A program made the position numbers and the translations under genes. Source: the human T2T-CHM13v2.0 reference genome, Homo sapiens. From it: a stretch of DNA of 64,000 bases. Location: the NCBI RefSeq assembly GCF_009914755.1, contig NC_060928.1; one strand, given 5' to 3'. The notes under the pieces were generated by a model. It did not search any database and had not been told where the DNA came from. It saw only the letters and a program-made list of their open reading frames with translations. Below, in pieces: positions 53,713-63,477 of this stretch (within the stretch, counting starts at the first letter, position 1; every line of letters starts with the position of its first letter).

Positions 53713-56686
53713 AAGAGTGTATTTACCAGTAAACATTTACATATATATATATATGAGATATACATATATCTATATATATTTAACTTAGAGCCTCTGGCAG
53801 GGGACAGCAACCAAGGATCCATGTGTCTGGTTGGCTCTAGGGAAGCCTGACCTTCACAGTTAGACTTGGGGGTTCCCCTGGGAATACACAGTGGGCAGCC
53901 ACCTTTCCAAAGGATGGGATGACCAGGCCGGATTTTGGTACCTCTTCTCTCCCCGTCACCCTGCTTCACAGGATGAGGGAATGGACAGATGAACAGATAA
54001 ACCAAGAAGAGACACCACATTCTCTGGCAGAGGAGCTCTACAAAGTGCAGTAAATTCCTGGGATCATATGAGTGATGAAGCCCAGAAATTGCCCAGGGAA
54101 GGAAGTTAGCAAACTTAAGAGTAAGTCCTTTGGCCCAATTTTAACGGACAAGGTAAAAAGAATAGTTGGTGTAACATCTGAAGTTTGGAAACACATGCTT
54201 TGTTTACCCCCCGCCGCATCCTCAGGCCTTTCAAAATGAGAGGATGCCCACTGTGAGCCAGCCGCTCTCTTGGCAAGCCGGCTGGCCACAAAGAGGCTCA
54301 GTCATAATCGGGTGGAAACATACACTCTCCCCTTTTTATTGGCGGCTTGAGGCTTGGTGATTGGCCTATAAATCTAAACTGCAAGCGCAGAGCCTGTGTT
54401 TGGGGTCGTGATCCGTTTGCCACAGGCACACTGGTCCTGGCTCGATTTACCGGCCGTTCTGCCTCCGCCCTTTGAACTGTAACCCATTTGAAGGGCTCTG
54501 GGGGTGACTTTGCTGTGCCTCAATGATTTATAGAAATTTCAGGATTCAAGGTTTTCACCTTTGATGCACAATTCTCCTTTTCCTTGGAAAGGGGACCGGG
54601 AACAAACTAAACTGACACAGTATCCAAGCACCATCCATTTTTGAACCTTTCAAACTGTGCCCAGTCAGTTCGTAATGCTTTAGGATGCGTTCTTTCTTAA
54701 CAGGCTCCTTGGCTGTTTGTTCAAATCAACCTCGGAGAGGCTTTCTCCTCAGTTCCGTGCATCTTCCTTCACTGAAACAAAGTGTTTACATCCTACTTGG
54801 TTGAATTTTTTTCCAGGACGACTCTCAGCCCGATGGCTATAGACTTCTCTTGGGCTCTGACATCGGCTTACCAGGTTTGACTAGAAATACACACGTTCCA
54901 ACCATAGGCACAGAGAGGACACAGTTTATGATCAAGTTAGAGTTTTATTGCATATATAGGAAAGACAAATGCACAAAAAGGACTGGAAGCAGCAGCTCCT
55001 GCCATGAGTGCTGAATTTGATGTATGATTAAGGCAGCTCACGGGCATGGGGTGCTGTGGGATCCTGAGAAGAAGGGCTCTGAAGCGCAAGGGGGACACTT
55101 CTATGTAATCTGCACTCACGCTGTTTTTTCACTCAGTGCCCTGCTTCTTGGCACTGGCTGAATCTCCATCTCCTATCACACATCTCCTGCCCCTTGGTGG
55201 AGAGAGGGGGTGAGCAGGTGAGAGAAGGCACAGGAGAAGGGGAATGAAGGTGGAAGGACATCTCGGGAAAGTCCCTTTTATAATATAAAGTGCAGGCAAT
55301 TCAGGTTGTACCCACACTAGAGATGCCAGGGATACCCTCTCTGTGGTTCTTTGGGTCCTGGGGGTTTGGAATTATTGCCAGTGATTATCAGTCAATATGT
55401 GCCATGAACTTTGTCATCATTTATAGACTGAATAAATGATATATGTCATTTATTTGTGCTACTGCTTTTAAAATATAACAAAATAGAAATTTATTTTTAA
55501 ATGCTAATAAGTTCATATGAATGTATTATTTTTTTGTTTTTCATCTGTCCTTAATATACCATAATAAAAGTAATAATAGTACCATGATGTGAACATCTGG
55601 AAGAAAAGAAGATTTTTTGTTTCTCAAATTTTGTAAAAATAGGAGTAGATAAATTCTGACATCTTAGAAGGACCAAATGTTTTGTTGGATAAGTGGTACT
55701 ATAACTTCCCCAAATACAATAGATATTTTATCCACACAATATACACTTTCATTGGATGGATTTGGTTTATTCACAAACATGTGCAACTAGGAATTAGCCT
55801 ATTTTATTTCTTTGAAAGTTAGTTGTTAATCATCCATAGGTATGTTTTTAAAAATTAAAACATAAACATGCCTTTCCTTTTAGAAAAACAGTATATATAT
55901 AGTATACAAGTAAATACAGTATACAAGTAAATTATCTACATATACATAAATGTATATGTATATGCAAAAGAGAGAGATAAATTTCACAATTCTACCACTC
56001 AAGATAATTGCTATCAATATCTAGGTGTATATCCTTCTAGAACTTTTAAAATAGACACGTTTATATACATTATTTACAAAACACAATATCTCATTTTAGG
56101 CTATGTTTAAAACCTGTTGTCTTTTCCATTTACCAATTTAGGATTATTGTCTTTCCATGAGAAGACGTGTTGTTGAAGCTTGGAATTCCCTACTAACTCA
56201 TTTTCAAAGGAATCTGTGATTGAGGTAAATCCAGTTTTCTAGAGAGAAAGAGGAAATGTCTTTTGAAGCCATGCCTGGGAAGTATGATCAGCGAATGTTA
56301 CTGCACAGATTTTTTTCCATCACAGCTTCCTCCCATCTAAATAATTATGATTTCTTCCCTTATGCCACTTGTTATTCCACGCTTTTTATTCATTGTCTGT
56401 GATTAAAGCCTCTTTAATTAGGAGCTAGAGAATTCACTCTCTAATTGAGGACTCATTTAAAATTCATGGGCCTGGACTTAGGATTCTGGTCTTTCACTGC
56501 TTCGGTCCATGTACTAGGGTGCCTATAGCAACACACAGCTTCCTATTTCTAAGGTTCTTTCAATTCTATTTAAAAAGACCCTAAGGAGTACAGACATCAA
56601 ATAGAACTCTAGTATTTGGAAGAATTTAGTTTAAATGAGATAGAACCATGCAAACTAAATTTTTGTCAATAAAAACATAAGCTTGC

Positions 56687-56898
56687 GCCTAGGGGTTTGA
56701 GCACTGGGGCACCAGTGAAGTGGGCCATCCCCCTGTCACATGTCCTGCGAGGAGGATAAGGGAATTCTCTGGTTTTAACTTAATCTGTAAAAGACCTTGC
56801 TAAGAGGATGAAAAAGAAGCCACAGCAATGGATAAAACATTTGTAAACTACATATCCAACAAAGGAATATTATGACTGTTTCAAGATTTGCAGAACTG
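56687..56898 (+). other. Foreign 5' segment inside the outer TSD: ERV1-type LTR 3' end (LTR1/27/28-like) + L1M ORF2 fragment + inner TSD
   Basis: CCTAGGGGTTTGAGCACTGGGGCACC...CCCCTGTCACATGTCCTGCGAGGAGGATAAGGGAA resembles the recalled LTR27/28 end. AAGAGGATGAAAAAGAAGCCACAG...CATATCCAACAAAGGA resembles L1M ORF2. Preceded by TSD AAAACATAAGCTTGC (56672-56686). Confidence 0.6.
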
Positions 56899-57909
56899 AA
56901 TAGGAACAGCTCCGGTCTACAGCTCCCAGCGTGAGCGACACAGAAGACAGGTGAGTTCTGCATTTCCATCTGACGTACCGGGTTCATCTCACTAGGGAGT
57001 GCCAGACAGTGGGCGCAGGTCAGTGGGTGCGCGCACCGTGTGCGAGCCGAAGCAGGGCGAGGCATTGCTTCACTCGGGAAGCGCAAGGGGTCAGGGAGTT
57101 CCCTTTCCTAGTTAAAGAAAGGGGTGACAGACGGCACCTGGAAAATCGGGTCACTCCCACCCGAATACTGCGCTTTTCCGACGGGCTTAAAAAATGTCGC
57201 ACCAGGAGATTATATCCCGCACCTGGCTCGGAGGGTCCTACGCCCATGGAGTCTCACTGATTGCTAGCACAGCAGTCTGAGATCAAACTGCAAGGTGGCA
57301 GCGAGGCTGGGGGAGGGGTGCCCGCCATTGCCCAGGCTTGCTTAGGTAAACAAAGCAGCCGGGAAGCTCGAACTGGGTGGAGCCCACCACAGCTCAAGGA
57401 GGCCTGCCTGCCTCTGTAGGCTCCACCTTTGCAGGCAGGCCACAGACAAACAAAAAGACAGCAGTAACCTCTGCAGACTTAAATGTCCCTGTCTGACAGC
57501 TTTGAGGAGAGCAGTGGTTCTCCCAGCATGCAGCTGGAGATCTGAGAACGGGCAGACTGCCTCCTCAAGTGGGTCCCTCAGCCCTGACCCCTGAGCAGCC
57601 TAACTGGGAGGCACCCCCCAGTAGGGGCAGACTGACACTTCACACGGCTGGGTACTCCTCTGAGACAAAACTTCCAGAGGAACGATCAGACAGCAGCATT
57701 CACAGTTCACGAAAAACCGCTGTTCTGCAAACACCGCTGCTGATACCCAGGCAAACGGTCTGGAGTGGACCTCTAGCAAACTCCAAAAGTCCTCCAGCTG
57801 AGGGTCCTGTCTGTTAGAAGGAAAACTAACAAACAGAAAGGACATCTACACCAAAAACCCATCTGTACATCACCATCATCAAAGACCAAAAGTAGAGAAA
57901 ACCACAAAG
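56899..57909 (+). promoter_or_regulatory. L1 5'UTR internal sense promoter and antisense promoter region
   Basis: CpG-containing L1 5'UTR. Promoter function is established for the family, not shown for this copy. Confidence 0.7.
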
Positions 57910-62811: not shown

Positions 62812-63050
62812 ACAATGAGAACACATGGACACAGGAAGGGGAACATCACACTCTGGGGACTGTTGTGGGGTGGGGGGAGGGGGGAGGGATAGCATTGGGA
62901 GATATACCTAATGCTAGATGACGAGTTAGTGGGTGCAGCGCACCAGCATGGCACATGTATACATATGTAACTAACCTGCACATTGTGCACATGTACCCTA
63001 AAACTTAAAGTATAATAATAATAATTTAAAAAAAAAGATTTGCAGAACTG

Positions 63051-63122
63051 TCTATTTAACCCATAGACTCATGAGCAATAATAAATTATTATTGCTTTAA
63101 CCAGTGGAAAACAAAACAAAAC
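63051..63122 (+). other. Foreign 3' segment with poly(A) signal and (AAAAC)n tail inside the outer TSD
   Basis: AATAAA at 63080-63085 in MLT1-like sequence (CCCATAGACTCATGAGCAATAATAAATTATTATTGCTTTAA). Tail begins at 63108, then TSD AAAACATAAGCTTGC at 63123-63137. Confidence 0.8.
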
Positions 63123-63477
63123 AAAACATAAGCTTGCAAATTTTATATTCTGTAATATTTCCATGGGCTATATAACCGCAGGAAGGGCAAACTATATCTT
63201 TATAGAATAAATTGTAGACTGGAAGAGTAATGAAAAAAACTGAGAGGAGTGTAACAAAATAATTAAAGGCTTAGAAAACAATATCCATGGAGCAACTAAC
63301 AGAATCGTATTCATCGCCTTTGGTGAAATGGCTGTTAGTGATTACAAACCGTGATTACAAAGGAAGACATGTTCTATATTGGGGAGTGACAAGCTGTTAA
63401 CTGATGCAGAAAAATCACAAAACAAGACCTGAAAGCTTTAAAAGAAATACTTATCTAATATCCCTAAATGAGGGTTT

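What the first reader, a model, noticed from the sequence alone, without database searches (positions are those of the whole stretch)
56672..63137. Two nested perfect TSDs around a full-length L1: probable combined 5' + 3' transduction, or an L1 inside an orphan retrocopy
Seen: an inner 16-bp TSD AAGATTTGCAGAACTG (56883-56898 / 63035-63050) hugs the L1. A second perfect 15-bp TSD AAAACATAAGCTTGC (56672-56686 / 63123-63137) lies outside it, at an L1-endonuclease-like AT/AAAA site. Between the TSDs are about 200 bp upstream (ERV1-type LTR 3' end joined to an L1M fragment) and about 57 bp downstream (MLT1-like, AATAAA at 63080, then a degenerate A tail 22 nt later). Known: L1 read-through past its weak poly(A) gives 3' transductions that start with the source TSD, and upstream promoters give rarer 5' transductions. 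Inference: a source L1 elsewhere was transcribed from an upstream LTR, polyadenylated at an MLT1 signal, and the whole cassette including the source's own TSDs retrotransposed here. That would be an LTR-driven, MaLR-terminated L1 lineage. Alternative: a 285-bp orphan transduction was later hit by the L1.
Basis: partly seen in the sequence, partly recalled or inferred. Interest (0 to 1): 0.85.

Follow-up and report, generated by a model that had tools for sequence, protein, structure and literature searches.

The report
L1 carrying copied chromosome 7 flanks
A nearly full-length L1 on chromosome 4 sits inside about 270 bases copied through RNA from chromosome 7, most likely because the L1 once sat at that chromosome 7 site and carried both flanks along when it jumped, which is a rare but already known kind of event.

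Summary
Both perfect repeats are real and non-random. Each occurs exactly twice in the window. A search of the window's own genome found one other locus, chr7:143,924,770-143,925,036. There the two flanks are contiguous (5 differences in 267 bp), no L1 is present, and the inner repeat occurs once. The chr7 repeats run on past both ends. The chr4 copy has one untemplated G, an A-rich tail starting 21 nt after AATAAA, and a 15-bp TSD. The outer unit is therefore an RNA-mediated copy of chr7, and the inner repeat is a true L1 TSD. An empty source fits two readings:
- one-step 5'+3' transduction from a lost chr7 L1 allele;
- a 267-nt retrocopy later hit by the L1.

I favour one step, at about 0.58 against 0.37. 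My reasons are that the flanks are no older than the L1, the orientation matches, and the flanks are short. Published base rates point the same way. An 'LTR-driven lineage' is not supported. This is a known kind of event, of modest interest. Ape orthologues would decide between the two readings.

The parts
56672..56686 (+). Outer target-site duplication, 5' copy (AAAACATAAGCTTGC).
   Evidence: It is identical to 63123-63137 and occurs only 2 times in the window. The bottom-strand nick site reads TTTT/TA.
56687..56687 (+). Single untemplated G at the 5' junction of the copied unit.
   Evidence: It is not part of the TSD, and chr7 has C at this position. Untemplated G at the 5' ends of full-length insertions is read as a copied cap (review PMC4859970, passage seen).
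56688..56898 (+). 5' chr7-derived segment of 211 bp. It comprises the LTR 3' end (56688-56778), an old L1-ORF2-like fragment (about 56809-56873) and the inner TSD copy.
   Evidence: It is 206/211 identical to G000:C7:143924770-143924980. LTR relatives align across the chr7 boundary.
56883..56898 (+). Inner target-site duplication, 5' copy (AAGATTTGCAGAACTG).
   Evidence: It is identical to 63035-63050. chr7 has a single copy that reads G at the first base. The nick site for the 16-bp reading is TCTT/GA.
56899..63034 (+). Near-full-length L1 of 6136 bp. It lacks about 21-22 nt at its 5' end and ends in a short A run (63028-63036).
   Evidence: Relatives L021, L022 and L024 carry about 22 more bases before AATAGG. 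The best genomic relatives are 97-98% identical in the 3' part and 94-95% in the 5' part. Private substitutions number 85/4514, or 1.88%.
57910..58920 (+). L1 ORF1, open, 336 aa.
   Evidence: with the translation start shown.
58984..62811 (+). L1 ORF2, broken. It has in-frame stops at 59299 and 61645 and loses its frame further on.
63035..63050 (+). Inner target-site duplication, 3' copy.
   Evidence: The first two A cannot be told apart from the L1 tail.
63051..63106 (+). 3' chr7-derived segment of 56 bp, with AATAAA at 63080-63085. Homology to chr7 ends 21 nt after the signal.
   Evidence: The match of 63036-63106 (inner TSD plus this segment) to G000:C7:143924966-143925036 is 71/71 identical, and chr7 continues with unrelated, non-A sequence. 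A chrX relative of the repeat aligns across the chr7 cleavage point.
63107..63122 (+). Degenerate poly(A) tail of the outer unit, G followed by AAAAC three times.
   Evidence: It is absent at chr7 and lies directly before the outer TSD.
63123..63137 (+). Outer target-site duplication, 3' copy.

Best explanation
This is a one-step retrotransposition of a chimeric read-through L1 RNA, that is, a combined 5' and 3' transduction.

Proposed sequence of events:
1. An L1 of L1PA3-like age, cut short by about 21-22 nt at its 5' end, inserted at chr7:143.925 Mb. The site lay between an LTR/old-L1 remnant and a repeat that carries an AATAAA. The insertion made the 15-16-bp inner TSD.
2. On that chr7 allele a transcript started about 211 nt upstream of the L1. 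It ran through the whole L1 and past its 3' end.
3. The transcript was cleaved 21 nt after the AATAAA that lies 30 nt beyond the 3' TSD.
4. The roughly 6.4-kb RNA was copied to its capped 5' end into a TTTT/TA site on chr4q35.2. This made the outer 15-bp TSD and a new tail.
5. The chr7 L1 allele was never fixed, or is absent from this genome, leaving the empty site seen today.

Shown:
- the chr7 origin of both flanks and their contiguity there;
- RNA-mediated arrival at chr4;
- the single-copy target at chr7.

Inferred:
- that the L1 was already between the flanks when the RNA was made;
- that the 5' end is a transcription start;
- that the progenitor allele was lost.
For: (1) Structure. The L1 and the copied unit have the same orientation. 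The flanks are short (211 and 56 bp). The 3' flank starts with the TSD and ends at the first AATAAA downstream, which is the anatomy expected of a transduction.

(2) Age. The flanks differ from chr7 at 5/267 positions, or 1.87% (95% interval 0.6-4.4%). The L1 carries 85/4514 (1.88%) private substitutions on its own lineage. If both arrived together, about 10 flank differences are expected, and P(5 or fewer) is 0.07. Any earlier arrival of the flanks fits worse. Likelihood ratios favour one step by 1.3 to 11, depending on the assumptions. When the differences are polarised, 3 fall on the chr4 lineage, 1 on the chr7 lineage and 1 is undecided. That is no more than the L1's own rate predicts.

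(3) An untemplated G at 56687 fits copying to a cap.

(4) The alternative template lacks support. No L1 lies within 8.8 kb upstream on chr7 that could explain the flanks as an orphan transduction, and no other retrocopy of this chr7 RNA exists in the genome.

(5) Base rates. In 5,311 polymorphic human L1 insertions, 466 carried transductions and 350 (82.2%) of the partnered ones were 3' (PMC12350158 section 19). The preprint gave 49 5' transductions among 4,429 L1 insertions. The part of its supplementary table that is held lists one L1 with the conformation TD+FOR+POLYA+TD+POLYA. My own estimate, which uses recalled genome numbers, is that a full-length L1 landing in the same orientation in a retrocopy of 300 bp or less that had only just arrived is several-fold rarer.
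Against: - The one direct test failed. The chr7 site holds no L1 and shows a clean single target in this genome.
- No sibling shares the 5' junction (1 of 1 genome-wide match is the chr4 locus itself) or the 3' flank.
- L1 5' transductions are rare. A review speaks of 'only a handful', and a short-read primate survey found none (PMC4862182).
- The first base of the inner TSD is A in both chr4 copies but G, in a CpG, on chr7. The better endonuclease site (TCTT/GA) needs A, which is slightly easier to explain if time passed on chr4 before the L1 hit.
- The age argument rests on only 267 bp. It also rests on an L1 'private' rate that may include differences inherited from its source.
- No promoter is evident at the inferred start, which lies in the distal part of the LTR.
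- My base-rate comparison mixes modern L1HS data with recalled genome-wide numbers.
Confidence: 0.58

Rival explanations
1. Two sequential, unrelated events. First, a short polyadenylated chr7 transcript was copied in trans by L1 proteins into chr4, giving the outer TSD and tail. The transcript was either 267 nt long or the 5'-truncated end of a longer RNA. Soon afterwards an L1 inserted into that 284-bp retrocopy and made the inner TSD on chr4. The chr7 site never held an L1.
For: - The chr7 source is contiguous and L1-free, with one copy of the inner target. This is exactly what the model predicts, with no lost allele needed.
- There are no siblings.
- The A-versus-G difference at the first inner-TSD base fits CpG decay on chr4 before the L1 nicked a TCTT/GA site.
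- Retrocopies of non-exonic sequence without an L1 do occur: 48 'orphan' events in PMC12350158 and 229 in its preprint.
Against: - It needs a full-length L1 to hit a 284-bp target, in the same orientation, shortly after that target arrived.
- The flanks are no more diverged from chr7 (5/267) than the L1's own age allows, and older flanks fit worse.
- The template would be an odd one. It is non-genic and made of repeat remnants, it has left no other retrocopy in the genome, and no L1 lies within 8.8 kb upstream.
Confidence: 0.37
2. The LTR promoter and the downstream poly(A) signal formed a heritable cassette that drove a multi-generation L1 lineage.
For: The cassette structure itself is the only support: the LTR end lies upstream and an AATAAA lies downstream.
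Against: - Genome-wide, the L1 5' junction occurs once.
- The 3' flank occurs only at chr4 and chr7, plus one 83% relative of the repeat.
- The 5' flank has only these two close copies.
- The copy starts about 245 bp downstream of the LTR's AATAAA, which is not at an LTR start site.
- ORF2 is now broken.
Confidence: 0.02
3. A single insertion made by template switching of the reverse transcriptase (chr7 RNA, then L1 RNA, then chr7 RNA), or a DNA-level transfer or chance repeats.
For: Chimeric retrocopies made by template switching are known. This is recalled, not checked here.
Against: - Template switching would not re-copy exactly the 15-16 nt that flank the L1, so it would not produce a TSD-like duplication of a sequence that is single-copy at the source.
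- A poly(A) tail placed after an AATAAA, together with a TSD, excludes DNA-level duplication.
- Chance is excluded.
Confidence: 0.02

Closest known systems
L1 3' transduction (read-through past the weak L1 poly(A) signal; described in review PMC4859970, passages seen)
   Same: There are two A tracts. The downstream segment begins with the source's 3' TSD and ends at the next AATAAA. It maps to one unique locus elsewhere.
   Different: That locus has no L1 in this genome. The segment is very short, at 56 bp. It is paired with a 5' flank.
L1 5' transduction, such as the 8q21.11 source with 22 events (PMC12350158 section 19)
   Same: Unique sequence from directly upstream of the inferred source site sits between the new TSD and the L1 5' end.
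   Different: The 8q21.11 events start at an annotated promoter and are spliced into the L1. Here the 211 bp are unspliced and contiguous with the target site, no promoter is evident, and the source L1 is missing.
Polymorphic L1 with both transductions (conformation TD+FOR+POLYA+TD+POLYA, 6,930-bp insert at chr11:108,833,127; supplementary file 2 of PMC12350158)
   Same: It has the same overall architecture under the one-step model.
   Different: That one is a recent polymorphism. This one is old (about 1.9% private divergence), presumably fixed, and its progenitor cannot be seen.
Orphan transduction or processed-pseudogene-like retrocopy later hit by a transposon (nested insertion)
   Same: There is a 267-nt RNA-derived copy with tail and TSD, and an L1 with its own TSD inside it.
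   Different: No L1 lies within 8.8 kb upstream of the chr7 segment, so it would not be a classical orphan transduction. The template is not an evident gene.

Membership tests
L1 insertion by target-primed reverse transcription (inner element) | Flanking direct repeat that is single-copy at the empty site | tested here: met
   The two copies match 16/16. There is one copy at chr7.
L1 insertion by target-primed reverse transcription (inner element) | A tail at the 3' end and an L1 body with ORF1 and ORF2 | tested here: met
   There are 9 A at 63028-63036. ORF1 is 336 aa and open, and ORF2 remnants are present. Identity to thousands of genomic L1 copies is 94-98%.
L1 insertion by target-primed reverse transcription (inner element) | Pyrimidine/purine nick site resembling TTTT/AA | tested here: inconclusive
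   The site is TCTT/GA if the TSD is 16 bp with A. It is a poor ATCT/C(T)G if the TSD is 15 bp and the ancestral base was the chr7 G.
L1-mediated retrocopy of a polyadenylated RNA (outer unit) | TSD, good nick site, and an A-rich tail not encoded at the source that starts 10-30 nt after a poly(A) signal | tested here: met
   The TSD matches 15/15. The nick site is TTTT/TA. The tail starts 21 nt after AATAAA, and chr7 continues with other sequence.
L1-mediated retrocopy of a polyadenylated RNA (outer unit) | Source locus where the sequence is part of longer ancestral DNA | tested here: met
   LTR relatives align across the 5' boundary on chr7, and a chrX relative aligns across the 3' boundary.
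L1 3' transduction | Source locus has a full-length L1 directly upstream of the transduced segment | tested here: not met
   chr7 is L1-free at the site and for 8.8 kb upstream in this one haploid genome. Other genomes could not be tested.
L1 5' transduction | Sequence between the new TSD and the L1 5' end maps directly upstream of the source L1's insertion site | tested here: met
   The 211 bp end exactly at the single-copy target on chr7, and the 3' flank continues from it.
L1 5' transduction | Transcription start upstream of the source L1 | tested here: inconclusive
   One untemplated G at the 5' junction suggests a copied cap. No expression or CAGE data are available here.
   No L1PA-like match on either strand in chr7:143,916,000-143,926,480.
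   The junction occurs once genome-wide and the flanks occur only at chr4 and chr7. The 5' end lies about 245 bp past the LTR's AATAAA.
   No repeat library is held. The 1.88% private divergence and the 97-98% best relatives fit an L1PA3-like age only by recalled calibration.

The most novel reading that the evidence does not exclude
The chr4 element is the only surviving record of an extinct chr7 progenitor allele. A 5'-truncated L1 that had lost the first 21-22 nt of its promoter region was transcribed from a start in the flanking LTR remnant. It was terminated by a flanking repeat's AATAAA and copied itself once, flanks and source TSDs included, before the progenitor vanished. This would be a fixed, ancient example of a combined 5'+3' transduction that rescued a promoter-damaged L1.
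Probability: 0.55. Interest if true: 0.4.

Novelty: new member of a known kind. Interest (0 to 1): 0.3.

Why it matters
If the one-step model holds, this is a clean, old and probably fixed example of an L1 that moved both of its flanks at once. In the long-read population table I could search, that architecture appeared once.

It would show that a slightly 5'-truncated L1 can still reproduce by borrowing a flanking start and poly(A) site. It would also show that such copies preserve the target site of a progenitor that no longer exists.

If the two-step model holds, it is an ordinary nested insertion. In both cases no gene or function is affected, as far as the annotation shows. The value is as a worked case showing that an empty source site does not by itself tell transduction from nesting.

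Tried and rejected
1. Sibling search. The L1 5' junction 27-mer, with up to 2 mismatches, matched only chr4. The 3' flank search returned 3 of 3 scored candidates: chr4, chr7 and one 83% chrX relative. In the 5' flank search, of the 40 candidates scored out of 231 found, only chr4 and chr7 were above 85%.

2. Orphan-transduction idea. No L1 lies in the 8.8 kb upstream on chr7.

3. Poly(A)-signal argument, dropped. The L1's 3' end lacks AATAAA, and I first read that as a private mutation forcing read-through. However, the exact 29-mer occurs at 44 loci. Twelve of these were compared over up to 1.5 kb, the aligned stretch ranging from 58 to 1,534 bp. Eleven are only 89-96% identical to this L1, and one aligns over just 58 bp at 98%. 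All 20 flanks inspected show short A runs of 5-10 followed by unrelated sequence. The AATAAA-less end is therefore a widespread older L1 3' form, not evidence for either model.

4. Direction of transfer. A chr4-to-chr7 transfer is rejected because the tail and TSD are on chr4 and the repeats are contiguous on chr7.

5. I asked for 30 full-length relatives to refine the L1 age. I used the 10 relatives already held.

7. The Athanikar 2004 and Lavie 2004 papers on L1 start sites (PMC506791, PMC525683) are not held. What I say about the YY1 box is recalled, with only the titles seen in a reference list.

8. PMC12016303 gave nothing of use.

9. I made no literature search for this particular locus, so I make no claim about whether it is in print.
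Full report
**Observation**

Allowing one mismatch, each occurs exactly twice in the 64-kb window. The expected counts from 100 shuffles are 0.00 and 0.01.

Between the inner pair lies a 6,136-bp L1 (56899-63034). 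Compared with relatives L021, L022 and L024, it lacks about 21-22 nt at its 5' end. ORF1 is open at 336 aa. ORF2 has in-frame stops at 59299 and 61645 and loses its frame later. The element ends in 9 A.

**The key result: a source locus on chr7**

The window's own genome could be searched. The 212-bp upstream flank has one close match elsewhere, G000 contig 7 at 143,924,770-143,924,980, with 98% identity over query bases 2-212. The other 38 scored hits are 77-85% relatives of two repeat families. The downstream piece matches the same place, 143,924,966-143,925,036, at 71/71. The only other hit is an 83% relative on the X chromosome.

Reading the chr7 locus and aligning it shows four things:
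- The two flanks are contiguous on chr7.
- No L1 lies between them.
- The inner repeat occurs once there, with G instead of A at its first base.
- The chr7 sequence runs on past both ends of the homology.

Upstream it continues into an LTR whose relatives align straight across the boundary. Downstream it continues into a repeat whose chrX relative aligns across the end point.

On chr4 the homology is preceded by one untemplated G (56687). It stops 21 nt after AATAAA (63080-63085) and is followed by a 16-nt A-rich tail and then the outer repeat. The bottom-strand nick site of the outer repeat is TTTT/TA.

The outer unit is therefore shown to be an L1-type retrocopy of 267 nt of chr7 RNA, and the inner repeat is a real L1 target-site duplication. 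The refutation 'flanks are ancestral local sequence' fails.

**What was not found**

Neither was found:
- chr7 has no L1 at the site, nor within 8.8 kb upstream on either strand.
- The L1 5' junction is unique in the genome.
- The flanks occur nowhere else.

There is thus no 'lineage'. The copy's 5' end lies about 245 bp downstream of the LTR's own AATAAA and about 90 bp from the LTR's 3' end, so a canonical LTR start is not what was copied.

**One step or two**

An empty chr7 site fits both remaining models:
- (A) A short chr7 RNA was retrocopied to chr4 and an L1 then inserted into it.
- (B) An L1 inserted at chr7. A transcript running from 211 nt upstream, through the L1, to the next poly(A) signal was retrotransposed to chr4. 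The chr7 L1 allele was later lost, which is the usual fate of new insertions.

The final chr4 structure is identical under both models, so only indirect evidence is available in one genome.

(i) Age
- The flanks differ from chr7 at 5 of 267 positions, or 1.87% pairwise (95% interval 0.6-4.4%).
- With 6 LTR relatives as outgroup, 3 changes fall on chr4 (two of them CpG decays), 1 falls on chr7 and 1 is undecided.
- The L1 has 85 private substitutions in 4,514 comparable sites, or 1.88%. Excluding CpG transitions the figure is 1.57%. Both are measured against 5 relatives per end.
- If the flanks and the L1 arrived together, about 10 flank differences are expected, and P(5 or fewer) is 0.07. If the flanks arrived earlier, more are expected.
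- Likelihood ratios favour B by 1.3 to 11 over a range of assumptions.
- The test is weak, because it rests on 267 bp and because the L1's private rate may include inherited differences. The flanks are nevertheless clearly not older than the L1.

(ii) Orientation. The L1 and the copied unit point the same way. Model B requires this, while under A the chance is 1 in 2.

(iii) Size. Flanks of 211 and 56 bp are ordinary for transductions. Under A, a 284-bp target is a small one to hit.

(iv) Template. The untemplated G suggests the RNA was copied to its cap. Under A the template would then be a 267-nt non-genic transcript that left no other copy.

(v) Base rates
- In long-read data from 1,019 people, 466 of 5,311 L1 insertions carried transductions. 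350 (82.2%) of the partnered ones were 3', 22 were 5' events from one spliced source, and there were 48 orphans (PMC12350158 section 19, passages).
- The preprint gave 448 3' and 49 5' transductions among 4,429 L1 insertions, plus 229 orphans (section 24 read in full).
- The supplementary table is held only in part. It contains the conformation TD+FOR+POLYA+TD+POLYA once, for an L1, and TD+FOR+POLYA 24 times, with Alu included.
- Older sources call L1 5' transductions very rare.
- I combined these figures with recalled, unverified numbers for full-length L1PA2-4 copies and for the genome fraction in young non-TE retrocopies. On that basis I estimate B to be several-fold more likely than A. Under pessimistic 5' transduction rates the odds fall to about even.

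(vi) Evidence against B
- The source is empty.
- Both chr4 copies of the inner repeat begin with A, where chr7 has a CpG G. The better nick site (TCTT/GA) needs A. This is slightly easier to explain if CpG decay happened on chr4 before the L1 hit.

Overall I put B at about 0.58, A at about 0.37 and everything else at about 0.05.

**A dropped argument**

The L1's 3' end has no AATAAA, and I first took this for a private mutation forcing read-through. That reading does not hold:
- The exact 29-mer occurs at 44 genomic loci.
- I compared 12 of them over up to 1.5 kb, with aligned stretches of 58 to 1,534 bp. Eleven are 89-96% identical to this L1, and the twelfth aligns over only 58 bp at 98%.
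- All 20 downstream flanks I read show A runs of 5-10 followed by unrelated sequence.

It is a common older L1 3' form and says nothing about either model.

**Comparison with what is known, and novelty**

3' transduction, 5' transduction, their combination, orphan transductions and nested insertions are all described. Under B this is an old, probably fixed member of the rare combined class, with its progenitor gone. Under A it is an ordinary nesting.

The family labels ERV1 LTR, L1M, MLT1 and L1PA3 could not be tested without a repeat library. What I could show is limited:
- the LTR nature of 56688-56778;
- a weak L1-ORF2 likeness for 56809-56873;
- an L1 age compatible with L1PA3, by recalled calibration.

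**Verdict**

The 'LTR-driven lineage' is not supported. Interest is modest, and the orthologous chr4 and chr7 sites in ape genomes would decide the matter.

Noticed in passing
window 57659-57781: About 122 bp of the L1 5' UTR are missing from at least 21 of the top-scoring full-length relatives. Their matches break at query 760/882-884, with the two pieces adjacent in the subject. The stretch is present in all 39 best 5'-end matches. It overlaps the unmasked gap 57706-57793 in NCBI's repeat mask. It probably marks a 5' UTR length variant of this L1 age class.
   Followed up: partly
L033 (chr4:49.52 Mb), L044 (chr13:10.62 Mb), L045 (chr22:7.75 Mb): Three L1 3' ends carrying the same 29-mer have nearly identical downstream flanks over 170 bp. 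This is one insertion carried in pericentromeric and acrocentric segmental duplications, so the 44 loci are not 44 independent insertions.
   Followed up: no
L002 1252-1264 (chr7) and window 56672-56686: The chr7 LTR's own poly(A) signal region reads AATAAAAGCTTGC. It shares AAGCTTGC with the chr4 outer TSD AAAACATAAGCTTGC. This is probably coincidence, but it is an 8-nt match between the source LTR and the target site.
   Followed up: no
L026-L045 (20 L1 3' ends genome-wide): L1 copies ending in ...TAATAATAATAATTT have uniformly short A runs of 5-10 directly followed by flank that mostly starts with GA. The five closest relatives of the chr4 L1 have A-rich tails of 13-35 nt.
   Followed up: partly
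window 33371-67590 (hub annotation): The whole L1-plus-flanks unit lies, in sense orientation, in the intron of the predicted lncRNA LOC102723906. Its next annotated exon starts at 63855, about 700 bp after the outer TSD.
   Followed up: no
L002 about 2426-2750 (chr7:143,925,926-143,926,250): An Alu-like element lies about 900 bp downstream of the chr7 source segment. It matches a dozen window Alus at 71-83% identity. There is nothing else notable in the 10.5 kb examined.
   Followed up: no
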